A stretch of 64,000 nt of DNA, taken from assembly GCA_017656145.1 (NCBI GenBank), contig JACDOI010000004.1:17850-81849 (forward strand), written 5' to 3'. The notes beneath the pieces are model-generated. The model was not told the origin of the DNA. It was given only the letters and a program-made list of their open reading frames with translations, and searched no databases. Source of the DNA: Bacillota bacterium. Its GTDB lineage: Bacteria > Bacillota > Limnochordia > Limnochordales > ZCTH02-B6. Below, piece after piece: positions 10,987 through 64,000 of this stretch (positions within the stretch are counted from its first letter, which is position 1; the number at the start of each line of letters is the position of its first letter). The position numbers and the translations under genes were made by a program.

Positions 10987-11011
10987 AAATTCCAGGCAAA
11001 TAAAAGGCGTC

Positions 11012-26746: not shown

Positions 26747-27042
26747 AGCGACCGCCCGGCACGTGGAGATTCCGTATCGTCCCAGCTGTGCCCGCCGGGC
26801 CTGTGAGCACGACGGCCTTTCGCCACGCGACACAACACTTTCGTCGCGAAGGTTTGCCAGCCAAGATTCGTCAACGTTGGGAAACGCTAGGGGCCCTATG
26901 CGGGAGGCCACGGGTAAGTACGCCGGGGTGGGTGATCACACCCCGGGTGGTCTGAGACGGTGACGCCTCACACTGACAGCAAATAACAATCAGTTTGGCA
27001 GTAAAAATAAAGATTTGCTGCCATTTCTAGTTAGACGTCGCG

Positions 27043-45567: not shown

Positions 45568-45991
45568 TGACGACGTACAGCGAACAATTCAGGACAAGCA
45601 GCGTTCTAGTTGAGGGGCGGAGTTTGCACCAGTTGCGCTCTTCTAATTCTGTGCGAGCTAAGGCCTTTCCTCGTCTTGCGAGCGGTAATCAATGTCTTCC
45701 TGTGATTGGGCCTGGCGCAGAAGACGCTCCTACGGGACGCCGGAGTGCGACCTCGAGACGGGCCGGCCCGTTGCTTTGCTACTGGGCGCAAGGGCCGAAT
45801 TCGTGGTGAGATGGTCTGTGACCCCACTTCATTAGCTGAGCAGGGGATGCAGGCCGGAGAAGAATCTTGAACGGGCTCCCCGAAGGCAATTTCGGTGCAG
45901 AGCGACAGTTGGTCAGCAAAACCGGAATATCGGCAGTATTATAATTGTGTAGTCGGGTTTTTGGTGACATTACATTAGGAGTTGCGATATA

Positions 45992-46867: not shown

Positions 46868-46892
46868 TGTGTGAAAGAGAGGAAAAGAAGCT

Positions 46893-47828: not shown

Positions 47829-47991
47829 TATTTGGCCACGGAAGCTTGAGGAAAAGTTTTTGCGGCTAGGTTGTGCGTCTCTTGAAAAGTGGTGTGTTAC
47901 TGGCAGAACGGAATACCTTTACGAGTGGTGAGGTTCGGCACATCGGTGTGCCCGTATTGGTTGGACTAACGCTTTCTCGGTAGGGAGCGCA

Positions 47992-49209
47992 TCACCTGCT
48001 GTGGTCAGTCGTTATATACAGAGACTTTCGTGATCTGTGGGTGTCCCAGCCGTCATAGATTTTTGCGGCGGCCTTTTCGTGAGTTTTGGGATATTTTCTC
48101 TGTGATGAGTTTTCCAGGTTCCTGTGTGCGGCGAAGGGCTTTCTCCAGCAAAGGCACTCCCCGGTAGCCCTTGATTCGCCGCAACCCGTCTCCATCTCCA
48201 GCAGACCGGCCGCCGACCAATGCAGCACCTGTTCACTCTTTTGGACAGCGTTTGAGGTTTCGACAGTCCACACGCGCCTTGTCGAAGATCGACTCGATAG
48301 CATTCGTTGAACGCAGGGTTCAGGGTGCGCTTCAGGGTCGCCGGCAGCCCCAAACGGGTTAGCGTGACGGCCTCCTCAAGACCCTCGCGCAGAGTTCTCG
48401 CTCCACCAGGAGACTGCTTTTCCAGAGTGTCCGCCGAGCTCCGCAGGGCCATCAGGGTCTTATTGTAGTCCACCTCCACCCAGGCCTACTGCAGCTTGTT
48501 CCCAACCCAGGTGCGCCGTACGGCCGCCACAGTGCCTTGGCCCCGTCCAAAACGCCCAGGACGCCGGTGCCGCTTGTGAGCCCTTGTGTCCATCACATGC
48601 GAAAGCAGACCCCGCACAGCGGTGACGTTTTCCGTTACCCCCTCTCGTAGGCCACGATGCGCTTTTCCCTTTCGCCGGATACCACAACGGCGGGCTCGGT
48701 CATCTCAAGCCCATTAAACGTGAGGACCAGGATCCGCTGGTAGTCTGGGCGCGGGCTCAGGAGTTTCTCAAGCGACTGGCGGGTGGCCCGAATGAACTGT
48801 CGGCTGACCGCACTCTTGGAGGTGTCGCTGGTTGGCAGGTCCTGCCCCGCTGGCTCCAGCCCGTTGCGGTAGCGCCGGCTGGAGAGGCCGTGCAGCACGC
48901 TCTCCAGGGCACCATGGTCAGCAGGTGCTCGTCCTGAAAGTCTTCATAGCTCTGTAGCCACACCTCCGGGCCACCAGTGCTGCGTGCCTGCGAGCGCTTG
49001 ACGGGGACCCGACGCCCACCCAGAACCACGCTTCGGTCCTCCTGGCCGTGTCGAACGGCCCGCCCGTCCCCGGTGTATTTGCCCTTGGGACCGACGAGTG
49101 CGGTGACCTCTTCTTCCATCATGCGCTGCATCACCTGGAGCCCTACGCGATGGAGACAGCCACGAGACCTTCCTTTTGCCCCCACGATATCCTCAACGAT
49201 GACCTTCAT
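47992..49209 (-). mobile_element. IS256-family (mutator-type) transposase pseudogene with at least three frameshifts
   Basis: Consecutive minus-strand ORFs carry LQVMQRMMEEEVTALVGPKGKY..., GLSSRRYRNGLEP...SKSAVSRQF, and PGGARTLREGLEEAVTLTRLGLPATLKRTL. Confidence 0.75.
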
Positions 49210-49443
49210 ACGTTCCGACGACTGGAGGTCCTGTCCAACCTGAATTTGCTGTAGGCTCGTCTGCTGCTAGCGCTTGTCGTGGTAGGATTTCATTGGTGGC
49301 GATACCTCCTTACCCTTCTAACCCTCGTAATACCAAATGAGGGAGTGGAGGCGTCACGTTCAATTTCTGCCATTTATGGGACAATGCCGGGCGACGCGGG
49401 GGATAATAGCGTTTTCCGGGTGTTCGAGAAGGGTACATCTATC

Positions 49444-50619
49444 ATGAGAATCTGCTACATTATAACTCGCTCTGATACTATTGGGGGCGCACAAATCCAT
49501 GTGCGTGATCTAGCGATCGCGTTACGCAATCACGGGCATAAGGTGACAGTGCTGATAGGCCAAAACGGAGTATTTGCCCAGGAGTTGAGAACCCAAGGGA
49601 TCCCAGTAATATCTCTCCGATACTTGGTTCGTCCAATTCAGCCTTTTACAGATCTCAAGGCTGTTATGGAACTTGTGAAAACACTCGAGGTGCTCCGCCC
49701 GGACCTGGTTGCGGCTCATTCATCGAAAGCGGGATGGATCGCACGCTTGGCGGCCTACAAACTTGGCATCCCGTCAACGTTTACAGCTCACGGCTGGGCT
49801 TTCACTGAAGGTGTCCAGAGTCCGTTGCGGGGTCTATACATGCTTGCCGAGAATGTCGCAGCCCGAATAGGGGATCGCGTTATCACAGTATCTCAGTATG
49901 ATAGAGAGTTGGCTTTGAATTTAAAGGTCGTTCCGGATTCAAAAATTGTGGTTGTACACAACGGCATACCAGACATCCCTAGTTCACTTTTAGCACGCCC
50001 GTGTCACGATACAGCGCAGTTGGTGATGGTCGCTCGCATGGATGTCCCAAAGGATCATGCGCTGCTACTTCAGGCGCTGGCTTCGTTAAGAGACTGTCCG
50101 TGGCGGTTGAAGCTGATCGGTGATGGCCCCTTCCGTGAACACTACGAGCAGTTAGTGCATCGTTTGGGAATTGCCGAACGGGTAATGTTCCTCGGTACAC
50201 GCAAAGACGTTCCGGAGCATCTAGCTCAGGCGGATATATTTGTTCTTGCTTCAAAATGGGAAGGTCTACCACTGAGTATCTTGGAAGCGATGAGGGCCGG
50301 CTTGCCGGTCATAGCGTCCGATGTAGGTGGTGTCCGCGAAGCAGTTCGCGATGGCGAGACGGGATTCCTGATTCCTCGTTCTGATGTGAATATATTGAAG
50401 GCCCGGCTCTTGACGTTGTTACGAAATCCGGACTTACGCTTGCAGATGGGACAAGCAGGTCGAGAGGTATATGAGAAAAACTTTACGCTCGACATAATGA
50501 TTGATAAAACACTTAATATATATGAATCGGTTATTCGAGACCGAAGGAGACAACGCAGTCGCAAATCTTTGGTTCGGAAAAGTCGTGAGAGCAAACAGGG
50601 TAGGCGCTCTTTCCGCTGA
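49444..50619 (+). CDS. Glycosyltransferase family 4
   Basis: From MRICYIITRSDTIGGAQIHV, with the C-terminal motif ASKWEGLPLSILEAMRAGLPVIASDVGGVREAV. The tracked start at 49279 was rejected. Confidence 0.85.
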   Translation: MRICYIITRSDTIGGAQIHVRDLAIALRNHGHKVTVLIGQNGVFAQELRTQGIPVISLRYLVRPIQPFTDLKAVMELVKTLEVLRPDLVAAHSSKAGWIARLAAYKLGIPSTFTAHGWAFTEGVQSPLRGLYMLAENVAARIGDRVITVSQYDRELALNLKVVPDSKIVVVHNGIPDIPSSLLARPCHDTAQLVMVARMDVPKDHALLLQALASLRDCPWRLKLIGDGPFREHYEQLVHRLGIAERVMFLGTRKDVPEHLAQADIFVLASKWEGLPLSILEAMRAGLPVIASDVGGVREAVRDGETGFLIPRSDVNILKARLLTLLRNPDLRLQMGQAGREVYEKNFTLDIMIDKTLNIYESVIRDRRRQRSRKSLVRKSRESKQGRRSFR

Positions 50620-50886
50620 GGCTATGCTGAGACGTTTGGGGTTGTCATCGCTGGAGTATAATGGGGTATCCTCTGAGTTTGAAGAAGATTGGTGAAGGGG
50701 ATTCGCCACTATTGGTTAGAAGGCAATTTCTGGAGGTCGGAAATCCTTCCTCGACCGTCATCGTCGGGCATGCAGGCGACGTGGAGCTTGTCTTGGAGCC
50801 TGGTTTGCCCATTCAGCAACAGCAGTTCGCCCATCGAAATTGCCATCTTCGCCGAGAGCGTCGCTACACGGTTCGCGAATACCTGA

Positions 50887-51141
50887 ATGCGCCGGAGTGC
50901 CCTCAACCCAAGCCGAGAGGTACGTGAGGAAGCCTGTTGGAGCTGGGCCCCTTTCGCAAGCATCTCGAAGTGTCTGAAACAGGACTTGAATGCGGTCATG
51001 GCCGCGTTCACGTTCATGCTGCCCTGGAGCAATGGCCTGGTTGAAGGCCACACCAACCGGCTAAAGTTGTTGAACCGCTAGATGTATGGCCGAGGCGGCA
51101 TCGAGCTCTTGAGACGGCGGGTCTTGAAGCTACCTTGTTGA
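50887..51141 (+). mobile_element. ISL3-family transposase C-terminal remnant with in-frame TAG
   Basis: LPWSNGLVEGHTNRLKLLNR*MYGRGGIELLRRRVL matches the conserved ISL3 C-terminus. Confidence 0.65.
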
Positions 51142-51252
51142 TGCCATGGTAGAGAACTCCCAACCACGAGGGCCGTAGGATCACCTAAACTACGTGAGAC
51201 TCAATTTATTCCGGCGTCGACACAACGCGCCCCGTTCGACCTATTTTTGGCT

Positions 51253-52458
51253 TCAGGTCTGGGAGTCGCTCGCACTGGTCAAGTGCGAGGATGTTTGGTG
51301 TCTGTCCAGGATGCCGAGGAGCAAGGGGACCTGTGCTGTGATGAGATCATCAAACAAGACGTGAATCCAAAACGCGATAAGGACAAGAAAGATAGCCTTC
51401 TCATAAGCTTCCAACTCGCGGCGCAGGTTCCGGAACATCACCCACCCAATCCAGCCGAAAAAGATAAGAGAGCCTAGAAGGCCCCATCCTGACGCGAAGT
51501 ACAAGTACACGTTGTGCGGTGTACGAACTTGCTCATACTCTTCTGGGAGCCGATACCGGGGGTAAACCAACCCGAAATTGCCGGGGCCGACGCCAAACCA
51601 CAAATGGTCCTTCAGTAGTTTGAGGGAACCTTCCCAGATGCGGAGTCGCTGAATGTTGCGGGACAAATCAAGGATAGAAAGCAGCCTGTTGCTAGCCGTT
51701 GGACTGATCGCTGCTGCAAACAGAAGGCCAGCGGGTACCCAGACGACGTACTGCCAGTTGACCAACACCGCACCCATTAGGGCGGCTCCCCCGATGCCCA
51801 CGATAGCGCCGCGCGATAGAGTGACGATGACGGCGGCCAGTGACACCATACCAATGACGGCACCTTCAAACCGTTCTCGTGCTTGTCCGCCTAAGAGCAG
51901 CAGTGTTAACCCACCTACGGCGCCCACTTCCAAAACCACCGCAAGACCGTTGGCACCCTGGCCAATGACGTACCCTCGACCTCCGGGCCCAAAATGGTCG
52001 AGCAGCACCAATCCGCCCAGTGAGACCTCCAATTGAAGCAGACGCGCGATAACGACAACACACGCCAATAGTCCCGTAGCGCGCAACAGGTCGCGAAAGA
52101 ACTTCTCTGGCTCCTGAACAGACCAGCGACCGAGCGCATAGATCCAGATAAAGATAAACGGGACAAGCCAGTTGAGTGCCCCGCGGCCGAGATCGACCCC
52201 GATGAGTACGCTTATCCAGCCAAGAACGCCCAGTAGGCCCCAAACGTACATGTCGCTGTGTTGAGTTCGGATGCCCTGAATCACCTGTTTGCCTCGGGTT
52301 GAGAGAAGCACAACACTGAAGACAGCCGAAACGGGATGGAAGGGAAGAAGCCACGCAGCGACTCGGTCGGTCCAACTTGAACGAGGAGAAGCCATATTTG
52401 AGGAATGCAATTCAGCCATACCCCTGTTTCGATTGTGACGTTGTTGATACCATTTCAT
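51253..52458 (-). CDS. O-antigen ligase/polymerase family (Wzy_C domain) membrane protein
   Basis: Polytopic, with SRGAIVGIGGAALM...RLRIWEGSLKLLKDHLWFGVGPGNFG...PHNVYLYFASGWGLLG. Confidence 0.8.
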   Translation of the reverse strand: MKWYQQRHNRNRGMAELHSSNMASPRSSWTDRVAAWLLPFHPVSAVFSVVLLSTRGKQVIQGIRTQHSDMYVWGLLGVLGWISVLIGVDLGRGALNWLVPFIFIWIYALGRWSVQEPEKFFRDLLRATGLLACVVVIARLLQLEVSLGGLVLLDHFGPGGRGYVIGQGANGLAVVLEVGAVGGLTLLLLGGQARERFEGAVIGMVSLAAVIVTLSRGAIVGIGGAALMGAVLVNWQYVVWVPAGLLFAAAISPTASNRLLSILDLSRNIQRLRIWEGSLKLLKDHLWFGVGPGNFGLVYPRYRLPEEYEQVRTPHNVYLYFASGWGLLGSLIFFGWIGWVMFRNLRRELEAYEKAIFLVLIAFWIHVLFDDLITAQVPLLLGILDRHQTSSHLTSASDSQT

Positions 52459-52970
52459 CAGCCGGAAGAAGCTTCCTGCTGTGCAATTCAGCCCCCTAGG
52501 GTTGACAGTCCCAGTGTAGTATAAGCACTGTGGTGTTCACCAGAATTGCCATGGCTGTTGCTCTGGCTTGGTGCGGCCATGTAGTGGGTGTAGGAAATAA
52601 GACCCCCGGCCGTCCAATGGGTTTGCGTCACCCATCATAGGTAGGCCCAGCGAAAAGACGATCCCGTGCACCTGGACCGCCCCGGTAAAGGAACTCAATG
52701 TAGGAGTGGCTGCTAGAGCAAAGAGCTGTGCCGCCAGGCATCCCGTAGCTTCTCGGCTCGATGTCTCGCGTCTTAGACTTCGGCGACGAAACAAGCGAGA
52801 CCGCGGCATGTGGCCTGGAAGATAGGGGAAGCCACTCGGTGGAATTCTGTCTGTAACCAGCCCGCAGGTCAGCTGTGAGCAGTCCCGAACCCTAACGGAG
52901 TGGGCTCTTTTAGAGCGCTGGTCGTTTTTGCAAAGAGCACACCTCCATTCAACAAGGAGCACTCATCATC

Positions 52971-53990
52971 ATGACACAATGGGATTCGATGAACGATCGC
53001 CGCGTGCACGAATCAAAGACCTCCGGGACTGGCGTCGGCTCGCTCACTGTAGTCATGCCGGCGCGAAACCGGGCCCGGCTTATCGGGTCATGCCTCAAGA
53101 GCCTTCTGAACGCCACCATGGCCCTGAAACCCTTGGCGGTTACCGCCGAGATCGTTGTGGCCGATGACGCCTCGACCGACGAGACGGCCCAGGTAGTGGA
53201 ACGGATAGCTGAAAGCGCGACAATCCCCGTTCGCTGCATCCATCTGCCGAGCCGCCAGGGGCCTGGACGGGCGCGAAATGCCGCCATCGAAGCGGCGAGG
53301 GGCGAGTTAATTGTCTTCGTCGACAGTGATGTGGTTGTCGAGGAGAACTTCCTCGCGGCCCATGTGGCGGCTCACCAGGCAGAAGGTCCTAACATTTTCA
53401 CGGTCGGCAGGCTCATCTCCGTGCCTACTTTGGAGGTCGCTTTATCTCGACCCCAACCGACCGTCTGGGATTTCTCTAGCGCCACCCTGGACACGGCCAA
53501 CGCCGCCGTGCGAAAAGTTCATCTGGAGGCTGTTGGCGCTTTCGATAAGGGCTTTGAAGTGATGGGCTGGCAAGATATCGACCTCGGGCGCCGGCTGAAG
53601 CAGTTAGGTCTGACGCGGGTGGCGACGGATACTGCCGTTGGGTACCATATTCAACCGCCTATTGAGACTCGGCAGCAACTCATCGCCCGCATGAACAAAG
53701 AGCGGGAACGGGGTGTGTCGGCCGTTTACTTCATGAAAAAATATCCCGGACTCTCGGCCCGGCTTGCCGCCCAGGATACAGCATTTCACAAAGGGTTCAA
53801 CTGGATCTGCCGCCTGGGTGGGTTGATCCGAGAAGAGAACGTCCTCGCCTGGGTCGCTTGGGCGCGCCGGCGAGGGTATCGGGCTTTCGAGAAGATGTGG
53901 CTGGCAGGAGTCATCAATCAAGCGTACTTGGAAAGCCTTGCCGCCACCCGTCGCGCGTCCCGACAAAAAAGAGAAACCGGGCATCCGTGA
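52971..53990 (+). CDS. Glycosyltransferase family 2
   Basis: Motifs LTVVMPARNRA, VVADDASTDET, ARNAAIEAARGELIVFVDSDV. Confidence 0.8.
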   Translation: MTQWDSMNDRRVHESKTSGTGVGSLTVVMPARNRARLIGSCLKSLLNATMALKPLAVTAEIVVADDASTDETAQVVERIAESATIPVRCIHLPSRQGPGRARNAAIEAARGELIVFVDSDVVVEENFLAAHVAAHQAEGPNIFTVGRLISVPTLEVALSRPQPTVWDFSSATLDTANAAVRKVHLEAVGAFDKGFEVMGWQDIDLGRRLKQLGLTRVATDTAVGYHIQPPIETRQQLIARMNKERERGVSAVYFMKKYPGLSARLAAQDTAFHKGFNWICRLGGLIREENVLAWVAWARRRGYRAFEKMWLAGVINQAYLESLAATRRASRQKRETGHP

Positions 53991-53994
53991 GGAC

Positions 53995-54805
53995 AGCTTT
54001 GGGGGGAAAGGGCGCCGCTCGCCGCGGCTTGTTTCTGAGCAGCAGCCATGGCGAGGTCGCGGGTGGAGCTCAGATTGTCGCTTTGGTCCGCGCTCTCGAC
54101 GGGGAGCGCCTCCTTATGGAGGCTTTTCCAGTTGGTTGGACCAGGCAGAACGTCTCAAAGGGCCGGCATCAAGGTAGTGCGTCCCCGGGCAAAACCTCCC
54201 AGCGGGGGATTTGCATACCTCAGCTTGAAGCATGCCTTGATAGACGAGCTGGCCGGCGGTGCCCGGTTGGTCGCACGCCAGCTCCGCTTCCTCTTGCGGT
54301 ATCGTCCAACGTGGGATGCGGTGGTCGGTGTGGGCGATCGGGTCAGCTTGCACCTGAACCACCGGATCCTCAAAAAGTCATGATCTGGATTGCCATTGCC
54401 TACTCAGTACGCTTTGTTCCTGAAAGCGGCCGGTTTGGAAGTGTAAGCCATTGGCGCCCGTTGCTCGAACCAGACGAGGAGGCTTTTGTGCGGGATCCCG
54501 ATACTCAGGCCGCTTTGGAGGCAAGGGGATATCCTGTTTGCTACGTTGGGAATCCGATGCGGGATGGCTTAGACTGCCAACCCGATATCTGTCAACGGGT
54601 GGAGGCAGCGCTGAAAGCCACCGGCTGGGACGGTTTCTGCCCCGTAATCGTCCTTTTGCCTGGGAGTCGCAAGGATGCACTCCAATCCGGAGCGGTATCG
54701 GGCGATGTCGGAGACAGGCAAGTGCCTCATGGGTTCGCCCGGTGCCACAGAATTCATTGCGCGGTGGATCGTCGAACGATTTGCTTTTTAAAACGAATGG
54801 TTTGA
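53995..54805 (+). pseudogene. Lipid-A-disaccharide-synthase-related (LpxB-like GT-B) gene, frameshifted and truncated
   Basis: Three pieces lie in two frames. They are LFLSSSHGEVAGGAQIVALVRAL; then GGFAYLSLKHALIDELAGGARLVARQ...WDAVVGVGD; then GYPVCYVGNPMRDGL...VIVLLPGSRKDA. Confidence 0.45.
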
Positions 54806-55051
54806 TCCGGGACGTTCGAGGTTCCTCGCGTGTTCTAACACGCCGGAGGCTCCGCCCACACCGTTCTGTGGGCAGGAGCTCCTTCGCAACCGGCGAAGTT
54901 GTGCTGGGGCGTCAAGGAATTTATAGAGCGAACGGATTTGGCCGTACGGCGGCTGGCCTCGGTTGATGGGCGACGGCCGCCGTCAATGTTTGCTCGACAT
55001 CACAACCAGCTGCTACGGCCGTCAAGCCGTCGCGGCGCGAATCTATCGTAT

Positions 55052-56464
55052 ATGCGAAAGGCGATGATCATGCACCACACTGGGTCCATGAATGTGGTCG
55101 TCGTAGGCACGGGATACGTTGGGCTCACTACAGGCGTTGGGCTCGCCTACATCGGCCATCAAGTGATGGGCGTGGACAAGGACCCGCAAAAGCTTGAGAA
55201 ACTCCGGCGGTTTGAGAGCCCCATCCATGAGCCGGGCCTTGAAGAGTTGCTGCGACTTGTGCCCGATCGCCTTCGGTTCACAGACAATCTGGACGCGGTG
55301 GCTGACGCGGACTTGATCCTGATCGCCGTCGGCACGCCACCTAAGTCCAACGGCAACGCAAACACCCGCTACGTGGAGACCGCCGCCCGCGAGGTGGCTA
55401 AAGCGATGCGGCCTGGGGGCACGTATACGGTGGTCGTCAAGTCTACCGTACCTATCGGTTCGAACCGGCGGGTGGCCCACGTCATCGATCGAACGGTGCG
55501 GGAGCGGGGGATCAAGGCTACCGTCCATGTCGCTTCAAACCCCGAATTTTTGCGGGAAGGCACTGCCTTATACGACATGTTGTATCCCGATCGCATCGTG
55601 GTGGGGGCGGATGCACCCGAAGCGGTAGAAACGCTGCGCCGGCTTTACAGGCCCATTCTCGAGCAATCCTTTCCGATTCCGGAGTTTCTGCCCCGCCCCG
55701 AGAGCCGCCCGCTGCCGCCGTTCATCACGACGGATCCGATCAGTGCGGAGCTGATCAAGTACGCGGCCAATGCGTTTCTTGCACTGAAGATCAGCTTCAT
55801 CAACGAGATCGCCGGGTTGTGCGAGAAGGTAGGAGCCGACGTTCGGGATGTGGCCCGGGGGATCGGCACCGATTCGCGCATCGGTCCGCGCTTTTTGGCC
55901 GCCGGCCTTGGTTGGGGCGGCAGTTGCTTCCCTAAGGACACCGCGGCGTTGTCCGCTGTCGGCCAAGAGTACGGCTACGACATGCCGATTGTCGAGGCAG
56001 CCCGGATGGTGAACCAGCGGCAACGCCAGCGGCTCGTGGACAAGCTCCAGGAGCTCCTCAAAGGTGTTCGGGGACGCACGGTGGGCATTCTTGGCTTGGC
56101 GTTTAAGCCGGGAACCGATGATGTACGGGAAAGCCCTGCTTTGGAGCTTGTTCGCTTGCTTCTGGAACGGGATGCCCACGTTCGGGTTCACGATCCGGTG
56201 GCTTTGGCCAACGCACAAAACGCCCTGGCCGCGATGGTCGGGGTAGAGGATGTCTCTGAGGTCGAGTTTTGTCATGACCCTTACGAGATGGCCGTAGGAG
56301 CCGACGCCTTGGTGCTGGCGACCGAGTGGCCCGACTACCGGGAGCTTGAGTTCGACAAACTTGCCCGGGCTATGCGGAACCCAGTGCTCGTGGACGGTCG
56401 CAATTTCCTACCCGAAGAAGCGGTTCGGGCCGCGGGTTTCGTGTATCAGGGGGTGGGACGATGA
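55052..56464 (+). CDS. ugd: UDP-glucose 6-dehydrogenase
   Basis: Motifs [54 protein letters not shown]. Four candidate ATG starts lie between 55052 and 55088. The tracked start at 54899 was rejected. Confidence 0.85.
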
Positions 56465-57445
56465 GACACGCCTTGGTTACAGGAGGAGCTGGGTTCATCG
56501 GCAGCCACCTGGTGGACCGGCTGCTCACCGAAGGCTGGCAAGTCACCGTCGTCGACAACTTCGATCCGTTTTACGATCCCGCCATAAAGCGCCGCAACGT
56601 CGAGCCACACCTTGACTATCGAACCTACCGGTTGGTCGAGCTGGACATCCGGGATCGCGAAGGGTTGCGACGGCTCAGCGGCGATTACGACGTCATTGTC
56701 CATCTGGTCGCCAGGGCGGGCGTGCGTCCGTCCGTCCATCCAGGACCCTATCGGCTACTATGAAGTCAACGTGGCCGGGACCCAAAACTTGCTAAAGTTA
56801 GCCAGGGAGTGGCGGGTTAAGCAATTTGTCTTCGCTTCATCTTCAAGCATCTATGGTGTGAACCCCAACGTCCCTTGGCGCGAAGACGACCATGTGCTTT
56901 TGCCCGTCAGCCCATACGCGAGCACGAAAGTGGCCGGGGAACTGATGGGACATGTGTACAGTCACCTGTACGGCATTCGGTTCGTTGCCTTGCGTTTCTT
57001 TACTGTCTACGGGCCCCGGCAGCGGCCGGATCTTGCGATTCACAAGTTTGCCCGGCTCATGCTGGCTGGGGAACCCGTGCCGCTGTTTGGCGACGGCGGG
57101 TCTCGCCGGGATTACACGTACGTTGACGATGTGGTTCAAGGCGTCCGGGCTGCGATGGATTACCGGGCAAGCGCCTATGAAGTGATCAATTTGGGCAACA
57201 ACCGCACCGTATCGTTGCGGGAGATGGTCCAAGCCCTTGAACAGGTGCTCAATGTTTCGGCCCAGTGTCGCCATCTTCCCGCCCAACCGGGCGACGTTCC
57301 GCAAACGTGGGCGGATCTCGACAAGGCCCGGCGTTTGCTCGGATACTCCCCGCAGACCTCGTTTGACGAAGGGCTAAGATCCTTTGCTTGGTGGCTGGAT
57401 GCTCAATCGCAGACCGGTCAGTATGGGCTTCGCATTCCTCGGTGA
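56461..57445 (+). pseudogene. NAD-dependent nucleotide-sugar epimerase/dehydratase interrupted by a +4 nt frameshift in a gtcc x3 run (56726-56737)
   Basis: The N-terminal part ([16 protein letters not shown]) is in frame 1 up to RAGVRPS. The remainder ([15 protein letters not shown]...YASTK...) is in frame 2. Deleting one gtcc unit restores a single ORF. Confidence 0.75.
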
Positions 57446-57652
57446 AGTGCGGCGTCGTCTTTCACGTTGCCGAAGGAACCTTGCGGAACGTGTCGAAAAG
57501 TACGGCCGGGCTGCGAGAACATTCGCCAGCGTTGTAAGGCGATATGGCCGTATGGCGCGGGTCATCACAGCTCTCTGGCTCGTCACGGTACCTGTCAGCG
57601 ACACATCCGGAAGCCACAACGATGCCAGCAGAATTGGGGTATGTAGAACCCG

Positions 57653-58945
57653 ATGAACCTCGCACGACCTTTAGTAAATTACTCTGACGTGCGCTCAGTA
57701 TTTGTATGGAATCCACAGAGGATTCTGCGCTGGCTTGTCGACATCGTGGCGACCTTTGGGGCGCTGATGGTCGGCTCCTACGTCGCGTGGAATACCGCCG
57801 GGTTTTGGCAAGTGCCGGGCATTTGGCCCGTCAGCTTGGCGATCGGCGGTGCCGTGCTCGGAGGAAAAGCCTGGTTGCAGCGTCGTGTTGTGAGCACCCC
57901 TTGGGAGCGCCTGCGCGCTGTGACCGCCTGGGTTGTGGCGGTTTACCTTTGTTTGGGCGTGTACCTTTTGATGGTCCGCTCTCCCTATTCTCGATCGTTT
58001 CTGCTCAGCTCGTTTGTCTCACTTCTGCTGTGGCAAATCGTCGATGCGTTGCTCATATCGAGAGCGCAAAGACCGGCAAGGCTCGCAGTCGTCCCGGGCG
58101 GGGCCTTGGAACCGATGAGCACGCTTCCTGGTGTCGAGCTGTACTGGTTGCGCCGGCCGGAGCTGGAAACACCGGTCTCGGGACTTGTGGTCGATATGCA
58201 CAACCCGCTTCCTCCCGAATGGACGCGCTTTGTGGCTGAATGCGCGGCAAGTGGGCTACCTGTATACCACGCGGCAGCCGTGTACGAGGCCGCCAGCAGC
58301 CGGGTTGCCCTAAGCTATTTGAGCCATGGCTTGGTGGGTGAGCTGTTCAACGGCTCTAGCCCATATATGGCGGTCAAGCGTTTGATCGACATCGCTTGCG
58401 TTCTGTTGAGCTTGCCCATCACGCTGCCCATCGCACTCATCACCACTATTGCAATACGTCTGGACTCTCCCGGACCCGTCTTGTTCTGGCAGAAGAGAGT
58501 CGGACAGGGTGGGCGGGTGTTCTGGCTGGTCAAGTTCCGATCGATGTATACCGATTCGGAGCGGAACGGTGCGCGGTTCGCCGCGGCCGGCGACGACCGC
58601 ATCACCCGCGTGGGGCGGGTGATCCGGAAGCTGCGGATCGATGAGCTTCCGCAGTTGTGGAATGTGTTCAAGGGAGAAATGAGCCTGATTGGGCCCCGTC
58701 CGGAACAAGTGCCGTTCGTGCGCGAATTCGAAGAGAAGATCCCGTTTTACCGGTGGCGACATCGGGTCAAGCCCGGAATTACCGGGTGGGCCCAAGTGAA
58801 CCAGGGATACGCCGCGGGCGTTCAGGATACCATGGAGAAGCTCGAATACGATCTCTACTATATCAAGCACGCATCCATCTGGCTCGATCTCGCGATCATT
58901 GTTCGGACAATCCGGGTCATGCTGACCGGTCATGGAGCAAGATGA
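57653..58945 (+). CDS. Polyprenyl-phosphate glycosyl-1-phosphate transferase (bacterial sugar transferase, WbaP/EpsL-like)
   Basis: N-terminal TM segments precede the C-terminal KRLIDIACVLL...GPVLFWQKRVGQGGRVFWLVKFRSM...DELPQLWNVFKGEMSLIGPRP. Confidence 0.9.
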   Translation: MNLARPLVNYSDVRSVFVWNPQRILRWLVDIVATFGALMVGSYVAWNTAGFWQVPGIWPVSLAIGGAVLGGKAWLQRRVVSTPWERLRAVTAWVVAVYLCLGVYLLMVRSPYSRSFLLSSFVSLLLWQIVDALLISRAQRPARLAVVPGGALEPMSTLPGVELYWLRRPELETPVSGLVVDMHNPLPPEWTRFVAECAASGLPVYHAAAVYEAASSRVALSYLSHGLVGELFNGSSPYMAVKRLIDIACVLLSLPITLPIALITTIAIRLDSPGPVLFWQKRVGQGGRVFWLVKFRSMYTDSERNGARFAAAGDDRITRVGRVIRKLRIDELPQLWNVFKGEMSLIGPRPEQVPFVREFEEKIPFYRWRHRVKPGITGWAQVNQGYAAGVQDTMEKLEYDLYYIKHASIWLDLAIIVRTIRVMLTGHGAR

Positions 58946-59185
58946 GGCTCCTCCTTCTAAGCACTAGGCACTAAGCCCCCGGCGTAGCTGATTCTAGGTC
59001 TACTTGCAACCCGGCGTGAGCAGGGGTGTATCCTTGTTTTGTCGCAGGATACTCTGCCGGGCGTTGTCCAGTCAGGTGGGCGCGCTTCAGGCACCCGCCA
59101 AACGCTTTTCTGGTTGCGTCACTTTCGGCCCGGAGAAGTACATCAACCCGCAACGCGAAAGCAGGGAGGAAACGGAGAGCGTTCA

Positions 59186-60520
59186 GTGCGGTATCTATGC
59201 GTATTCGGCACCCGGCCGGAGGCCATCAAGATGGCGCCGGTGATCAAGGCTTTGCGGCAAGCGGGGGAGAGCGCCAAAGGCCAGGTGGACGTGCGGGTAT
59301 GCGTCACCGCCCAGCACCGGGAGATGCTGGACCACGTCCTGGAGCTGTTTGAAGTCGAACCCGACGCCGACCTGAACCTGATGCGGGCCGGCCAGGATTT
59401 GACCGATATCACGGTAGGCGTGCTGCAGGGAATGCGGACGCTCTTGCCCAAGCTGCGGCCCGATCGAGTCTTGGTGCACGGCGACACGACGACGACGTTC
59501 GCGGCCAGCCTCGCGGCGTTTTACGAGAAAATTCCCGTGGCGCATGTAGAGGCCGGGCTGAGGACCGGCAACATGTACTCACCGTGGCCTGAGGAAATGA
59601 ACCGCAAGCTCACGGCCGCCATCTCGGACATGCACTTTGCTCCCACCGCTCGGGCCCGGGACAATTTGCTGGCCGAAGGCGTGCCTGCCTCAAAGGTTTT
59701 CGTTACCGGCAACACCGTGATCGACGCGTTGCTGCAAGTAAGCCGCCGCCTGGAGGCCGATGCCCCGCTTCAGCGGTCGCTGGATGCACGGTTTCCCTTT
59801 TTGCGCAGCGACCGACGATTGATTCTCGTGACGGGCCACCGACGGGAGAACTTCGGCGAGCCGTTTGAGCGCTTGTGCCGGGCGCTGCGGGCGCTGGCGG
59901 GCCGGCCGGATGTGCAGATCGTGTACCCGGTCCACCTCAATCCAAATGTGCGGGAGCCGGTCTTTCGGATCTTGGGCGCGGCAGCAAGCGGCGGAGAGAA
60001 TTGGGCCGCGGGTGACGGGCTGGGAGCTGCCGCAAGCACAACTATGCTCGATACTGTAGCCGGTGCTGTAGGCGATGCCGCAGGCGTTTCCTCCGGCCGC
60101 ACTCAGGACATCGGCACCGCTGGTCCGTCTTTGGTCCTCATCGATCCCGTCGACTACCTGGAGTTTGTGTACTTGATGCAGCGGTCGTACTTCATCATCA
60201 CCGACTCCGGCGGCGTGCAGGAGGAGGCGCCGAGCCTAGGAAAGCCCGTGCTGGTTACCCGGGAGACCACCGAGCGCCCCGAAGCGGTCGAGGCCGGCAC
60301 CGTGCGCCTGGTGGGCACCGATGAAGCGGCCATCGTGAGAGAAGCAGCGCGCCTTTTGGACGATCCCCAATGGTACAGGCGCATGAGCCAAGCCGTCAAT
60401 CCATACGGCGACGGCCGGGCTGCGGAACGCATTGTCAGCTACCTTTTGCGAAAAGACGGGGTCGTGGCTAGCGGCATCAAAGACGTTCCTGAATTTGAAC
60501 CAGGAAATTTGAACGAGTAG
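59186..60520 (+). CDS. wecB: UDP-N-acetylglucosamine 2-epimerase (non-hydrolysing) with a ~50-aa low-complexity insertion
   Basis: Motifs [70 protein letters not shown]. The likely start is GTG 59186. Confidence 0.85.
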
Positions 60521-60997: not shown

Positions 60998-61372
60998 TCA
61001 TTCCAATTTTCCTTTCAAAAAGGCCAGAGCCTGCTCGCGAGTGGGGAATTTATATTCCTCCGAGTGTCCCGATTTGGAACGAATCATGTCCAGGGTGATG
61101 TTCACCACAGCGCCCGGAGTCACGACGGCCGAGCGCCGCAATCCCTGGCTGATCACCCACTTTTGCTGTTCGACCACGAGCCGCTGCGCTTCGGGCCCGA
61201 ACGACACGAGGTTCGACGTATCGACAAGCATGTCAAAGCCGTTCGCCCACACCTCTTTGATGCATTCGGCGATCTTCTTGTTGGCCGCTTCGAATTCGCT
61301 CGGTTCGACTTTTCCCGACCATACCAGCTCAATGATGGGGTGATCACGATCCAAAATACGCACACTCCACAT
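60998..61372 (-). CDS. STAS/SpoIIAA-like small protein
   Basis: A 124-aa ORF. ELVWSGKVEPSEFEAANKKI...FDMLVDTSNLVSFGPEAQ resembles SpoIIAA-like (STAS-fold) proteins of unknown function. Confidence 0.45.
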   Translation of the reverse strand: MWSVRILDRDHPIIELVWSGKVEPSEFEAANKKIAECIKEVWANGFDMLVDTSNLVSFGPEAQRLVVEQQKWVISQGLRRSAVVTPGAVVNITLDMIRSKSGHSEEYKFPTREQALAFLKGKLE

Positions 61373-61668
61373 TGTGCCTTGGTACCTCCATTCTTGAAGT
61401 TGAAACTAGAAAAGCAAGTTATCAATTGACCAAGGCTCCAGGTTTTTCCTTCTTTCCGAGGTTAACTTTTCCTATACTCGACCTCGATAGATCCGTTTGC
61501 TCAGTCTTCAGTGTCCGGGACCGCCGGTGAGGATAACACGCGTCGAAGAATTCCGCCGGCGAGCCCGCAGTGCAGGGGTTGGGGTGTCGCACCCGTTGGC
61601 GAGTGCAGCAGGAATTGGTCGATGTTAACGGAATGTACAGTAAACAAAACGCGGGAGGGAGGTTAACC

Positions 61669-63177
61669 GTGGCCTTCCATCGCCAGTCGGGCTTAGACAC
61701 CCGGTCGTCGAAAATGCCCTGGTGGGTCCCGGGTGCGGATGCGGGCCTCGTCTATCTCGGCAAGCTCCAAGCGTTATCGGCTATCGACCCGCGAGTCATC
61801 CAGGCGATGGATTTTTGGTTAAAGGATTCCGTAGGCGACCTCGGTGAGGCCCGCCGGATTGTTCTCGAAGCGACCGATTCCGAGAACTACGAGCGATGGC
61901 TGGAGGCGTTAAAGGGTTACATCGGCGAGCAGGTGGCGGCGGACCTCCTGGAAACGCAGGGATTCTCCGTGGAGTGGGCACCGGCGCCGAACGAGCAAGG
62001 ATGGGACCTCTCCATCAACGGTCAACCCGTTAATGTGAAGGTTGGAGCGACGGCCGAACATGTGGCCCGGCATCTGGCCGAGCATCCCGACATTCCCGTC
62101 GTCACCAGTCCTGAGTTGGCCGCCCAGTTTCCCGACGAGGCCGACAGGATCATCGCCTTGCCGGAACTGGACAATGAGGCGCTTGAGGCGATCCGAGACG
62201 AGTCGCTCGACAACCTCGTGGAAGCCGGAGAATGGGAGGCGGTTTTCCCTGTCGTCACCGCCGTTGCTGCCGGTGGGCGTGAACTGGTGCTCTGGCTCTC
62301 GGGAGACACGGATCTCCTGTCGGCGGTTCGGAACGCTGGGTTGGATGTTGCCGGCGTCGGCGTCGGCATGTTCATCACGGGGCATCTAGCTGCCTCGGCC
62401 TTGACGGCTCTCGGCGTCGTTAACCCCCTGGCGGCAACCGTCGCTTCTTTTGGAGGCGGCTTGCTTGGCAAATCGCTGGCTCGCTCGATAAAGACCCGCC
62501 CATTGGAGGAGGCGGTGGTAGAGTTCAGGGAAGCGCAGGAAGCTGCCCGCCGCGAGTGGATGGAACGCCGCGTTCTGTTTCGTCAGACAGTGCTCCGCGG
62601 CATAGCCGCCCTGGAGCGGGAGCTTAGAGAGCGGTTGCGCCGGATCGAGCGCAAGCACCGCCGGCGGCTGAGTACGGAGAAATCTCGATTCGAGAGAGCG
62701 GTTCAGGAATTTTTGCACGATGTGCCAGACCGGTTGGAATCGGGCGCTGAATGTGCGTTGTCGGGGCCTCCGGAGCTCGGTCCGTGGCTCGAGCGGGAGC
62801 GACAGTGGGTAAGAGAAGTCGCGGACGGGATTCGGCGCTTAGTCCAGTCCCTTCCGCCAGCGGACGCGTTTGCTGAGGTTCAAGACGTCCTCTTGAACGC
62901 GCGGGTGCCGATACGCCAACTCATGGAGTCTGTGGACACCCTGGTACAGGAGCATGCCCGGATGCTGACCGCGGCCGGAGTGGAACGGACCTTGGCGGAA
63001 CGGGAGGCCAGGCGGGAAATCGCCCGAACGGTTTCCGCGATTCAGCAGTTGATTCTCCGCGAGTCTCGAAAGCTGCACGAGTGGATCGATCAGCGACGTG
63101 AGAAGTTGAAGCACCTGGCGGAAAAGGTGGCTCAGGCGGCTCGCAGGCTCGGTTTCCGTTGGCCGCTCCCTGAATAA
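61669..63177 (+). CDS. Paralog of the 27043-28926 protein (Mrr-like motif + hydrophobic Gly/Ala segment + coiled coil)
   Basis: GGGAGGGAGG ends 6 nt before GTG 61669. Motifs are KGYIGEQVAADLL...GWDLSINGQPVNVKVG and VVTSPELAAQFP...IIALPEL. The hydrophobic segment is GVGVGMFITGHLAASALTALGVVNPLAATVASFGGGLLG. Confidence 0.7.
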   Translation: MAFHRQSGLDTRSSKMPWWVPGADAGLVYLGKLQALSAIDPRVIQAMDFWLKDSVGDLGEARRIVLEATDSENYERWLEALKGYIGEQVAADLLETQGFSVEWAPAPNEQGWDLSINGQPVNVKVGATAEHVARHLAEHPDIPVVTSPELAAQFPDEADRIIALPELDNEALEAIRDESLDNLVEAGEWEAVFPVVTAVAAGGRELVLWLSGDTDLLSAVRNAGLDVAGVGVGMFITGHLAASALTALGVVNPLAATVASFGGGLLGKSLARSIKTRPLEEAVVEFREAQEAARREWMERRVLFRQTVLRGIAALERELRERLRRIERKHRRRLSTEKSRFERAVQEFLHDVPDRLESGAECALSGPPELGPWLERERQWVREVADGIRRLVQSLPPADAFAEVQDVLLNARVPIRQLMESVDTLVQEHARMLTAAGVERTLAEREARREIARTVSAIQQLILRESRKLHEWIDQRREKLKHLAEKVAQAARRLGFRWPLPE

Positions 63178-64000
63178 TTAGCCAGCCAGCGGTTGCGAGG
63201 GATAGGCGCTGTACCCCTTTCGGATCTCGTCTCGCACTTGGTCAAGCTGCAGCAAATACCGGTCGATCTCCCGATACAGCTGTTTCAGGCCCGCTGCCGA
63301 CCACCCCTGGCACGTGCGTCGGGAGAATGCGGTGGTCAGGCTTTTCATCACTTCCCGGTTGAACGCGTCGACCGCAGGGAGCACAGTGGGCCGAATCCAC
63401 CGTCGTTCGATGCCTTGTCTTGCTTCTTTGATGGAATCCCGGAGGAAAGCACCGAGATTGCGGGATGTTTCGGATGACTTAGCTATCGTGCGAAGGACCG
63501 CTGCCGCGAGGATTGCGATCAAGACCGGTGGGACAAAGGTGGTCGCTGCCGCAACCCCGGTAGCAGCCGAATACCCGGCAACGGCGCCGCCGATCACTGT
63601 GCCGGTGAACAAAGTGTCCCGCAACTCTTGCAGGAAATCGTTTTCGACGCTGGATGGCCGCGCGGCGTTATGGCGGCGTTCGGCGTTCTGTTCGTGAAGG
63701 GTTTGGAATCGCTGGTCGACTGAGGCACCGACCCGATTGGCGACAGATTCCCACTCGGATTTCAAACGCGCGTGCACGGATTTGTCTAAATCATCGACAA
63801 ATGATTGCCAATCGTGGCCTCGGAAGGCCTCCTCCAATTTCTGCCGGAGTTCTGTTTCGTAGGACGTTGCGTCCACGGTTGCCCGCACGCGGTCCCAAAC
63901 CTTTCGGGGAATCGCCTCTTGGTCCAAGCGGTAGGACACGGATTGTGTATACCGATTCAGCTCATTCCAAATGTGTATTTCCACCTCGTTGCGAATCCGA
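63178..64000 (-). CDS. C-terminal part of a helical protein with a central hydrophobic Gly/Ala hairpin (possibly dynamin-like stalk/paddle); 5' end outside window
   Basis: The ORF is open to the window edge. LFTGTVIGGAVAGYSAATGVAAATTFVPPVLIAILAAAVL is flanked by charged helical sequence. The stop codon abuts the stop of the convergent paralog gene. Confidence 0.45.
   Translation of the reverse strand, partial: RIRNEVEIHIWNELNRYTQSVSYRLDQEAIPRKVWDRVRATVDATSYETELRQKLEEAFRGHDWQSFVDDLDKSVHARLKSEWESVANRVGASVDQRFQTLHEQNAERRHNAARPSSVENDFLQELRDTLFTGTVIGGAVAGYSAATGVAAATTFVPPVLIAILAAAVLRTIAKSSETSRNLGAFLRDSIKEARQGIERRWIRPTVLPAVDAFNREVMKSLTTAFSRRTCQGWSAAGLKQLYREIDRYLLQLDQVRDEIRKGYSAYPSQPLAG

What the first reader, a model, noticed from the sequence alone, without database searches (positions are those of the whole stretch)
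60998..64000. Second locus of the novel family: the paralog is convergent and stop-to-stop with another helical/hydrophobic-hairpin protein, and divergent from a STAS-like gene
The paralog (61669-63177, strong RBS GGGAGGGAGG) ends at TAA 63175-63177. The minus-strand gene's stop codon occupies 63178-63180, so there is no intergenic space and no terminator between the convergent genes. The partial partner has a similar build: long charged helices interrupted by LFTGTVIGGAVAGYSAATGVAAATTFVPPVLIAILAAAVL. This is reminiscent of the paddle/membrane-insertion region of bacterial dynamin-like proteins, but the N-terminal part, where a GTPase domain would be, is outside the window. A divergently transcribed STAS/SpoIIAA-like protein (60998-61372) could be a partner-switching or ligand-sensing component. 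Together these may form a membrane-remodelling or membrane-attacking module. The island copy at 27043 would then be a solo duplicate of one of its components.
Basis: partly seen in the sequence, partly recalled or inferred. Interest (0 to 1): 0.55.

Follow-up and report, generated by a model that had tools for sequence, protein, structure and literature searches.

The report
Bacterial dynamin beside defence-island membrane nuclease-like gene
The region holds three neighbours that do not travel together elsewhere: a small STAS-like gene, a divergent copy of a rare membrane-associated, nuclease-like protein family that in other genomes sits inside restriction-modification and other phage-defence clusters, and the tail of an ordinary bacterial dynamin-like GTPase.

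Summary
The + gene 61669-63177 ends at TAA 63175-77, and the stop codon of the - gene is 63178-80. The full-length - gene product was recovered from a protein library: 605 aa, NCBI MBO8140929.1, "dynamin family protein". It has Dynamin_N (E 5e-23) and an intact G1 motif, GEVKSGKST.

The three-gene module is not supported. About 60 loci from metagenomes, species-representative genomes and a plasmid carry relatives of the paralog. None has a dynamin or STAS gene nearby. Four loci with relatives of the dynamin lack the paralog family, and three of them show the usual tandem dynamin pair.

The paralog family has:
- a PD-(D/E)xK-like domain with invariant E87, D113 and K124, and N/Q at 122;
- a glycine-rich hydrophobic hairpin;
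- a long coiled coil.

Its members sit next to defence genes: type I hsdM/S/R (often translationally coupled), helicase-nucleases, GmrSD and SNF2/MmeI-like genes. The family matches the PADLOC candidate PDC-M72B. Other members are fused to, or preceded by, a second helical hairpin protein ("A").

The family is most likely an uncharacterised phage-defence effector. Its adjacency to the dynamin is probably incidental.

The parts
60998..61372 (-). Small STAS/SpoIIAA-like protein (124 aa), transcribed divergently from the paralog. A GGAGG ribosome-binding site lies upstream of its ATG.
   Evidence: Pfam PF11964 matches positions 1-106 of 106, E 3.5e-5, 24.9 bits against a cut-off of 25. NCBI MBO8140927.1 is named 'STAS/SEC14 domain-containing protein' and its cluster has one member. 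It was not found next to any other family member.
61373..61668 (.). 296-bp divergent intergenic region. It contains the paralog's ribosome-binding site GGGAGGGAGG (61653-61662).
   Evidence: Read from the sequence. No sigma-70-like promoter was found by the scan. No Rfam family matches. It shows no similarity to the region upstream of copy 1.
61669..63177 (+). Copy 2 of the family (502 aa; NCBI MBO8140928.1, 'hypothetical protein'). It is of the 'B-long' type but lacks the N-terminal membrane anchor and the strict GxxxG zipper seen in copy 1.
61882..62163 (+). Conserved PD-(D/E)xK-like domain (residues ~72-165). The putative active-site residues are E87 (61927-29), D113 (62005-07), N122 (62032-34) and K124 (62038-40).
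   Evidence: G83, E87, N108, G111-W-D113-L, G118 and K124 are invariant in 30 sequences. AlphaFold gives alpha-beta-beta-beta-alpha-beta topology with pLDDT 62-87 over this stretch. Pfam PDDEXK_5 gives sub-threshold hits in 11 of 30 members, and Mrr_cat scores E 0.084. Foldseek top hits are mostly PD-(D/E)xK nucleases but are not significant. PADLOC PDC-M72B scores E 6.3e-6 here and 6e-21 at best in the family.
62347..62469 (+). 41-residue uncharged Gly/Ala-rich hairpin (V227-G267). It is the degenerate counterpart of the family's glycine zipper.
   Evidence: Kyte-Doolittle peak of 1.63, which is borderline for membrane insertion. Copy 1 has nine or more in-register GxxxG repeats, and copy 2 has none. 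AlphaFold confidence is below 50 here.
62482..63147 (+). C-terminal long helical / coiled-coil region (residues ~272-493).
   Evidence: AlphaFold helices 253-363, 368-394, 397-410 and 415-493. Foldseek returns only SMC, BAR and other coiled-coil matches, none significant.
63178..64000 (-). 3' 45% (residues 333-605) of a 605-aa bacterial dynamin-like protein (NCBI MBO8140929.1). The GTPase domain lies beyond the window end.
   Evidence: P0004 is 100% identical over 273 aa. Pfam Dynamin_N. PADLOC LeoBC and LeoA. PDB DLP2 and BDLP1. Profile match in the window.
63493..63612 (-). Paddle (membrane-insertion hairpin) of the dynamin-like protein, residues 462-501.
   Evidence: Highest hydropathy in the protein, 2.21. 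G469, A477, G480, A484, P489 and P490 are invariant among five relatives. Its position matches the paddle region of the LeoBC profile. The paddle concept is described in PMC4159319.

Best explanation
The 3 kb hold three adjacent but separate units.

1. The minus-strand gene is the C-terminal trunk, paddle and closing helices of a standard bacterial dynamin-like GTPase of the DLP2/LeoBC type. By analogy with characterised relatives, it binds membrane through the hydrophobic paddle and uses GTP to tether, fuse or repair membrane. It most likely works with a second dynamin encoded just upstream, outside the window (inferred from relatives).

2. The plus-strand gene is a divergent member of a rare, horizontally scattered family. 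The family is built from a cytoplasmic PD-(D/E)xK-like domain (E...D...(N/Q)xK), a glycine-rich hydrophobic hairpin and a long coiled coil. Its relatives are embedded in type I restriction-modification operons and beside other defence genes. I therefore infer it is a phage-defence effector, with two possible modes. Either it is a membrane-held nuclease acting on incoming DNA, or it is a sensor whose oligomerisation through the coiled coil drives the glycine zipper into the membrane (abortive infection). Where it sits inside hsd operons, it is probably guarded by the restriction complex in the way PrrC is.

3. The STAS-like gene is an unrelated small neighbour.

The stop-to-stop convergent arrangement is a local accident of gene packing, or at most defence-island style co-location. 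It is not a conserved module.

Shown: the gene identities, domain conservation, lack of synteny and defence-rich neighbourhoods. Inferred: nuclease activity, membrane insertion, the defence role and the PrrC-like guarding.
For: Dynamin identity. In three relatives the dynamin is the second gene of a tandem pair (L006, L007, L008).

Family distribution: 33 metagenome loci, 25 of 185,579 species genomes spread over Bacillota, Gammaproteobacteria, Dehalococcoidia and others, and one Paracoccus plasmid beside an IS110.

No dynamin or STAS in any of these loci.

Neighbours of family members:
- hsdM/hsdS/hsdR in L014, L016, L017, L030=L056, L057, L058, L060 and L063, with 4-bp overlaps in L014, L016 and L017;
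- a DEAD-MZB helicase plus GmrSD in L015;
- a DUF4011/AAA_11/MTES_1575 helicase-nuclease in L021 and L055;
- SNF2 plus an MmeI-like gene in L025 and L053;
- NERD-UvrD in L026;
- an N6_N4 methylase upstream of window copy 1.

Domain evidence: PDC-M72B matches 8 members, best E 6e-21. Invariant E/D/K residues and alpha-beta-beta-beta-alpha-beta topology. Recurrent weak PDDEXK_5 and Mrr_cat hits.
Against: - Nothing in the window around copy 2 other than the dynamin is defence-like. One side is a polysaccharide cluster.
- The nuclease assignment rests on sub-threshold profile hits, a non-significant Foldseek result (best E 0.037) and low-confidence models (mean pLDDT 55-60).
- Copy 2 has Asn where most members have Gln. 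It lacks the N-terminal anchor and the strict glycine zipper, so it may work differently or not at all.
- Leo-type dynamin pairs are themselves reported next to defence systems in 60% of cases (bioRxiv 10.1101/2022.05.11.491447). A functional link in this one genome therefore cannot be excluded.
- The gene upstream of the dynamin could not be read.
Confidence: 0.65

Rival explanations
1. The dynamin-like protein, the 502-aa paralog and the STAS protein form one membrane-remodelling or membrane-attacking module. The two hairpin proteins co-assemble on the membrane and STAS acts as a switch.
For: - The three genes are physically adjacent, with zero intergenic space.
- Both large proteins have a hydrophobic hairpin flanked by long helices.
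- The same arrangement is present in an independent assembly of the same or a very close organism (L001).
- Elsewhere the family's B domain does pair with, or fuse to, another helical hairpin protein, 'A'. The A profile has a marginal similarity to the dynamin trunk/paddle region (hhalign 72%, E 3.5e-5).
- Dynamin pairs are defence-island residents.
Against: - 0 of ~60 family loci have a dynamin or STAS. 0 of 4 dynamin-relative loci have the family or STAS.
- The genes are convergent, not co-transcribed.
- The A partner is always upstream and co-directional, and it is not detected by HMM in the dynamins.
- The family and the dynamins are not homologous.
- No partner-switching kinase or phosphatase lies nearby.
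Confidence: 0.1
2. The family is not a defence gene. It is a membrane-associated structural or DNA-tethering coiled-coil protein with a catalytically dead nuclease-like fold, and its defence-island neighbours merely reflect carriage on mobile DNA.
For: - Many loci, including both window copies and the closest Bacillota MAG loci, have no recognisable defence neighbour. Some sit beside GGDEF proteins, sugar transporters or an IS element.
- The canonical acidic residue of (D/E)xK is replaced by N/Q.
- No curated family reaches its threshold.
Against: - Translational coupling inside hsd operons in several unrelated lineages.
- Association with at least four other kinds of defence gene.
- A match to a defence-candidate profile.
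- QxK is, from my own recollection of the literature, the Mrr-type variant of the motif, so N/Q does not imply inactivity.
- The E, D and K positions are invariant.
Confidence: 0.15
3. Copy 2 is a decaying or neofunctionalised paralog. It has lost the N-terminal anchor and the glycine zipper and no longer performs the family's ancestral function.
For: It has no N-terminal hydrophobic segment and no G-x3-G-x3-G motif, unlike copy 1. It is only 39% identical to copy 1.
Against: - It has an intact 502-codon ORF with a strong ribosome-binding site.
- All invariant domain residues are kept.
- The identical protein occurs in a second sample.
- Other members (L012, L045, L046) also have short N-termini.
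Confidence: 0.1

Closest known systems
Bacterial dynamin-like proteins: Campylobacter jejuni DLP1/DLP2 pair (PDB 5OWV/5OXF) and Nostoc BDLP1 (2J68)
   Same: It has a Dynamin_N GTPase with G1-G4 motifs, a length of ~600 aa, and a hydrophobic paddle about 100 residues from the C-terminus. The best PDB sequence hits are DLP2 (E 5e-14) and BDLP1 (E 1e-10). Relatives are the second gene of a tandem pair.
   Different: Only the GTPase domain aligns at the sequence level. The pair partner could not be seen for this genome. In relatives the pair is preceded by a coiled-coil protein, which is not described for the C. jejuni pair as far as I know.
LeoA/LeoBC 'Dynamins' anti-phage system (Millman et al. 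2022; Michie et al. 2014)
   Same: The PADLOC LeoBC profile covers nearly the whole protein (E 1.7e-23) and LeoA scores 2e-17. The paddle is glycine-rich. Such pairs lie next to defence genes in 60% of cases, and here the neighbour is a defence-candidate gene.
   Different: The scores are modest. One relative with long flanks (L007) has housekeeping-like surroundings. The two-gene requirement could not be checked.
PADLOC phage-defence candidate PDC-M72 (protein B)
   Same: The conserved domain of copy 2 matches PDC-M72B (E 6.3e-6). Eight family members match, with a best E of 6e-21. A multi-gene name fits the A+B operons found here.
   Different: PDC-M72 is only a computational candidate with no published description (no paper found). 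The profile is ~190 positions and covers only the domain. The window copies are the single-gene 'B-long' form with no A partner.
PrrC and other restriction-linked ORFs embedded in type I R-M operons (from my own knowledge of the literature: EcoprrI-PrrC; Campylobacter rlo genes)
   Same: The family gene is inserted between or after hsdM/hsdS and before hsdR, co-directional and often overlapping (L016, L014, L017, L030, L057, L063).
   Different: There is no sequence relationship to PrrC (an ABC-type ATPase plus anticodon nuclease). The family has a membrane hairpin. Both window copies are outside any hsd operon.
PD-(D/E)xK nucleases of the Mrr_cat / PDDEXK_5 type
   Same: It has alpha-beta-beta-beta-alpha-beta topology, a Glu in helix 1, an Asp at the start of strand 2 and (N/Q)xK in strand 3. 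Weak profile hits recur.
   Different: No hit reaches a curated threshold. The domain is joined to a hydrophobic hairpin and a coiled coil, an arrangement I have not seen described.

Membership tests
Dynamin superfamily / bacterial dynamin-like protein | Large GTPase domain with G1 (GxxxxGKS/T), G3 (DxxG) and G4 motifs | tested here: met
   This was tested on the full-length protein P0004, which lies outside the window. Dynamin_N scores E 5.3e-23, 82 bits against a cut-off of 27. The motifs are GEVKSGKST 64-72, DTPG 158-161 and NRID 216-219.
Dynamin superfamily / bacterial dynamin-like protein | Hydrophobic paddle at the tip of a helical trunk, near the C-terminus | tested here: met
   Residues 462-501 have hydropathy 2.21. 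The Gly/Pro positions are conserved. The stretch lies within the LeoBC profile match 355-564 of 601. No 3D model could be made because the full protein was not admissible for prediction.
Dynamin superfamily / bacterial dynamin-like protein | Encoded in tandem with a second dynamin-like gene | not testable with these tools
   The upstream DNA is outside the window. The contig was not retrievable. The feature is met in relatives L006, L007 and L008.
Dynamins anti-phage system (LeoA + LeoBC) | Two-gene dynamin operon located among defence genes and giving phage protection | tested here: inconclusive
   PADLOC LeoBC and LeoA profile hits. One flank is a defence-candidate gene and the other flank is unknown. 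Protection was not testable.
STAS / SpoIIAA-like (PF11964) | Full-length profile match at or above the curated threshold | tested here: inconclusive
   24.9 bits against a cut-off of 25, covering positions 1-106 of 106. There is no NCBIfam hit. NCBI names it STAS/SEC14.
STAS partner-switching module | Adjacent anti-sigma kinase (SpoIIAB/RsbW) or PP2C phosphatase partner | tested here: not met
   The neighbours are a UDP-GlcNAc 2-epimerase and the 502-aa protein. No kinase or phosphatase domain was found.
PD-(D/E)xK nuclease superfamily (N-terminal domain of the paralog) | alpha-beta-beta-beta-alpha-beta core carrying E ... D ... (D/E/Q)xK | tested here: inconclusive
   The topology is present with pLDDT 62-87. 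E87, D113 and K124 are invariant, and position 122 is N or Q. However, Foldseek's best E is 0.037, Pfam PDDEXK_5's best E is 0.0027 in 11 of 30 members, and the PDB profile search found nothing.
PADLOC candidate PDC-M72 | Match to the B-protein profile | tested here: met
   E 6.3e-6 for copy 2 and 2.9e-4 for copy 1. The best E among relatives is 6e-21.
PADLOC candidate PDC-M72 | Presence of the partner (A) gene next to B | tested here: not met
   A profile of the A-type proteins finds nothing in any frame of the window.
Glycine-zipper membrane hairpin | In-register GxxxG repeats in an uncharged segment | tested here: not met
   Copy 2 has no G-x3-G-x3-G and a hydropathy peak of only 1.63. Copy 1 has nine or more repeats. 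Copy 1 also hits glycine-zipper NCBIfam models.

The most novel reading that the evidence does not exclude
The family is a new kind of membrane-anchored PD-(D/E)xK defence effector that needs a helical 'paddle' partner. The A protein fills this role in two-gene and fused forms. In this genome the convergent dynamin-like protein has taken over that role, so a dynamin and a membrane nuclease would cooperate at the site of phage DNA entry.
Probability: 0.08. Interest if true: 0.75.

Novelty: new variant of a known kind. Interest (0 to 1): 0.4.

Why it matters
The dynamin itself is ordinary and is already annotated. What is worth keeping is the paralog family. It is an uncharacterised, very sparsely distributed protein found in 25 of ~185,000 species genomes. 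It combines a nuclease-like domain with a membrane hairpin and a coiled coil. It occurs in three modular forms (B-long, A+B operon, A-B fusion) and is repeatedly wired into type I restriction-modification operons. If it is a defence effector guarded by the restriction complex, it would be a second, membrane-based example of the PrrC principle, and it is cheap to test. For this window, the result also warns against reading a module into a stop-to-stop junction.

Tried and rejected
- **Extending the contig.** An exact look-up of the paralog and of the dynamin found no contig on record. The only contig recovered (L001, a Logan assembly) ends inside the dynamin gene. The genome is not among the species representatives.
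- **Word-indexed protein searches.**
  - The partial dynamin found nothing, not even itself.
  - The paralog found only 3 proteins, twice. This wrongly suggested extreme rarity. DNA-pattern scans later found ~58 loci.
- **Whole-protein AlphaFold model.** Mean pLDDT was 60, and its Foldseek search returned only coiled-coil noise.
- **Domain-only model.** It was built from 4 sequences and gave pLDDT 55, with no significant Foldseek hit.
- **Searches without usable hits.**
  - PDB sequence and profile searches for the family: nothing.
  - PHROGs: only glycine-rich low-complexity hits for copy 1.
  - Phage collection: no match.
- **hhalign of the A-type proteins against the first family alignment.** It gave 99.7%, but that alignment (A6) contained an A-type sequence, so the result is void. 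The clean repeat gave 9.6%.
- **Shared regulatory sequence upstream of the two copies.** None found.
- **Compositional island around copy 2.** GC is unremarkable.
- **Literature on PDC-M72.** Nothing found.
Full report
**Observation.**
- A GTG at 61669 is preceded by GGGAGGGAGG (61653-61662). It opens a 502-codon ORF ending at TAA 63175-63177.
- The next three bases, 63178-63180, are the stop codon of a minus-strand ORF that stays open to the window end.
- The quoted hydrophobic peptide is encoded at 63493-63612.
- There is no terminator-like site at the junction. The junction folds less well than shuffled sequence (z = +2.1).
- The protein is 39% identical over its whole length to the ORF at 27043-28926 (E 2e-104). 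A six-frame profile scan finds just these two copies in the window.
- The divergent 124-aa gene (60998-61372) matches Pfam SpoIIAA-like PF11964 end to end but sits exactly at the threshold (24.9 against 25 bits). NCBI calls it STAS/SEC14.

**The minus-strand partner is a bacterial dynamin.**
A word-indexed search failed. A full HMMER scan of 1.8 billion representative proteins returned a 605-aa protein identical to the window fragment over residues 333-605 (P0004). It is NCBI MBO8140929.1, "dynamin family protein", from a 104-kb contig of a Bacillota MAG.
- It has Dynamin_N at 60-216 (E 5.3e-23) with GEVKSGKST, DTPG and NRID.
- It matches the PADLOC LeoBC profile almost end to end (E 1.7e-23) and LeoA (E 2e-17).
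- Its closest solved relatives are C. jejuni DLP2 (E 5e-14) and Nostoc BDLP1 (E 1e-10).
Its Gly and Pro positions are invariant among relatives. It sits where the paddle is expected; Michie et al. describe the paddle as inserting into the outer leaflet and note that LeoA's paddle is glycine-rich (PMC4159319).

**Context of the dynamin's relatives.**
- In the three relatives with upstream sequence (L006, L007, L008), the gene is the second of two consecutive dynamin genes, preceded by a coiled-coil protein.
- This agrees with the statement that most bacterial dynamins are encoded in tandem.
- None of the four loci contains the paralog's domain or a STAS gene.
- I could not read the DNA upstream in this genome.

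**The paralog family is wider than it first looked.**
Protein searches gave only three proteins. Scans for the conserved peptide N[QE]xGWDL found much more:
- 33 metagenome loci;
- 25 species-representative genomes out of 185,579, scattered over Bacillota, Halomonas and other Gammaproteobacteria, Lysobacterales, Dehalococcoidia and others;
- one copy on a Paracoccus plasmid next to an IS110.

Such a thin, patchy spread suggests horizontal transfer.

**Test of the module.**
tblastn with the dynamin and the STAS protein against all of these loci, many with 10-kb flanks, found nothing.
- The closest relative of copy 2 (L010, 55% identity) has a different upstream gene.
- Profile-profile comparison of the family with the dynamins gives 4.6-9% probability, so the "similar build" is convergence in composition.
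- Copy 1 is 59% identical to a protein from another sample. The two window copies are therefore old paralogs or separate acquisitions, not a recent duplication.

**What the family looks like.**
An alignment of 30 domains shows invariant G83, E87, N108, G111-W112-D113-L114, G118 and K124 (numbering of the 502-aa protein). Position 122 is N or Q.
- AlphaFold models are poor overall (pLDDT 55-60). They give alpha-beta-beta-beta-alpha-beta, with E87 in the first helix, D113 in strand 2 and N122-x-K124 in strand 3. Local pLDDT is 62-87.
- Foldseek hits are not significant (best E 0.037). The top of the list is Ecl18kI, influenza PA endonuclease, DdmD, I-Ssp6803I, HindIII, EcoRII and Hjc, all PD-(D/E)xK enzymes by my own knowledge.
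- Eleven of 30 members give sub-threshold Pfam PDDEXK_5 hits, and the window protein gives a weak Mrr_cat hit.
- I therefore treat the PD-(D/E)xK fold as likely, not proven.

After the domain comes a conserved P-x-x-T...S-G-x-R-E...T-D...K-N...D-x-A-G motif. A glycine zipper and a long helical region follow. Copy 1 has nine or more in-register GxxxG repeats and an N-terminal hydrophobic anchor. Copy 2 has neither, and its hairpin is only borderline hydrophobic (1.63).

**Three architectures.**
- B-long forms of about 600 aa. Both window copies are of this kind.
- Twenty ORFs of 750-930 aa. In these the domain is preceded by a region matching a separate "A" protein.
- Seven loci, including Lysinibacillus, Solibacillus and Salipaludibacillus isolates. 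Here a ~520-aa A gene sits directly upstream of a short B gene. The A protein is helical, has a hydrophobic hairpin and has no P-loop.

The fusion argues that A and B work together.
- A is not related to the family's own C-terminus (9.6%). An earlier 99.7% result is void because that alignment contained an A sequence.
- A has a marginal similarity to the trunk/paddle region of the dynamins (72%, E 3.5e-5). This is not seen by HMM search.
- There is no A gene in the window.

**Genomic company.**
Pfam and PADLOC annotation of neighbours, extended by BLAST, shows the following:
- type I R-M subunits next to the family gene in L014, L016, L017, L030=L056, L057, L058, L060 and L063;
  - the family gene usually lies after hsdM/hsdS and before hsdR, with 4-bp overlaps in L014, L016 and L017;
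- a DEAD/MZB helicase and a GmrSD-Schlafen protein in L015;
- a DUF4011-AAA_11/12-MTES_1575 helicase-nuclease in L021 and L055;
- an SNF2 helicase and an MmeI-like protein in L025 and L053;
- a NERD-UvrD helicase in L026.

Window copy 1 follows an N6_N4 DNA methylase. Eight members match the PADLOC candidate PDC-M72B, with a best E of 6e-21. I found no paper on it. Many loci show no recognisable defence neighbour, but many of those contigs are short.

**Mechanism.**
- For the dynamin I adopt the textbook behaviour of its relatives.
- For the family I propose a phage-defence effector. It is either a nuclease held at the membrane or a sensor that triggers membrane damage through the zipper once the coiled coil assembles.
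- Inside hsd operons it is plausibly kept silent by the restriction complex, as PrrC is (my own knowledge).
- These steps are inferred, not shown.
- Copy 2 lacks the anchor and the zipper, so it may act differently or be in decline.
- Millman et al. report that Leo-type dynamin pairs lie beside defence systems in 60% of cases. The adjacency here could therefore be defence-island clustering, but the other visible flank is a polysaccharide cluster.

**Verdict.**
- The dynamin guess is confirmed.
- The three-gene module is not supported.
- The dynamin and STAS genes are ordinary and already named.
- The family is an uncharacterised variant of defence-island nuclease-like genes with an unusual membrane and coiled-coil build. 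It is worth a small experiment.

Noticed in passing
window 11011-11167 (+): A c-di-AMP riboswitch (Rfam RF00379, 85 bits against a gathering score of 38). It is the only Rfam match in the window.
   Followed up: no
window 44458-60520: A long polysaccharide biosynthesis cluster abuts the STAS gene. It contains EpsG, several GT2 and GT4 glycosyltransferases, a Wzy_C polymerase/ligase, UDP-glucose dehydrogenase, an epimerase/dehydratase, the Bac_transf priming transferase and UDP-GlcNAc 2-epimerase. The epimerase ORF covers 390 residues against 341 profile positions and contains a Gly/Ala-rich stretch, which suggests an insertion.
   Followed up: partly
window 24617-28926: Copy 1 of the family (27043-28926) lies 1.3 kb downstream of an N6_N4 DNA methylase (24617-25726), with two unannotated ORFs between them. 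ROK, ABC sugar transport and rhamnosidase genes follow. Copy 1 keeps the N-terminal anchor and a perfect glycine zipper.
   Followed up: partly
L033 5868-8848; L049 4863-7691; L054 8269-11065; L059 8221-11065; L057 8711-11221; L064 8080-10520; L062 8248-9813: These are two-gene operons. A ~520-aa helical protein with a hydrophobic hairpin and no P-loop ('A') sits directly upstream of a short family member ('B'). Twenty other ORFs are A-B fusions. A has a marginal profile similarity to the dynamin trunk/paddle. In L062 the B gene seems disrupted.
   Followed up: partly
L011 1-1164, L044 7917-9536, L045 3213-4016, L046 6538-9111: Four Bacillota MAG loci that are among the closer relatives of the window copies have GGDEF-type (one GGDEF plus HD-GYP-like) proteins just upstream of the family gene. 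This was recognised by eye from motifs and BLAST clustering, not by a profile search. It may simply reflect shared ancestry of these MAGs.
   Followed up: no
L002 8803-11729: The distant family member P0003 lies directly after an SNase-domain (staphylococcal nuclease) gene. The contig also carries a phage-type integrase, AAA_25 and many small ORFs, so it looks like an integrative element.
   Followed up: no
L006 246-1016, L007 6892-7854, L008 523-1692: In the three relatives of the dynamin whose upstream DNA is available, the tandem dynamin pair is preceded by a 256-389 aa coiled-coil protein with only faint or unrelated Pfam hits. This may be a conserved third component of this dynamin subtype.
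   Followed up: no
L005 2001-2261: The closest relative of the dynamin (P0005) is followed by a gene that overlaps its stop codon. By eye its N-terminus resembles DUF697-type proteins (...IPFADMPILTAIQGVM...). It is preceded by an ORF with a hydrophobic C-terminus rather than a second dynamin.
   Followed up: no
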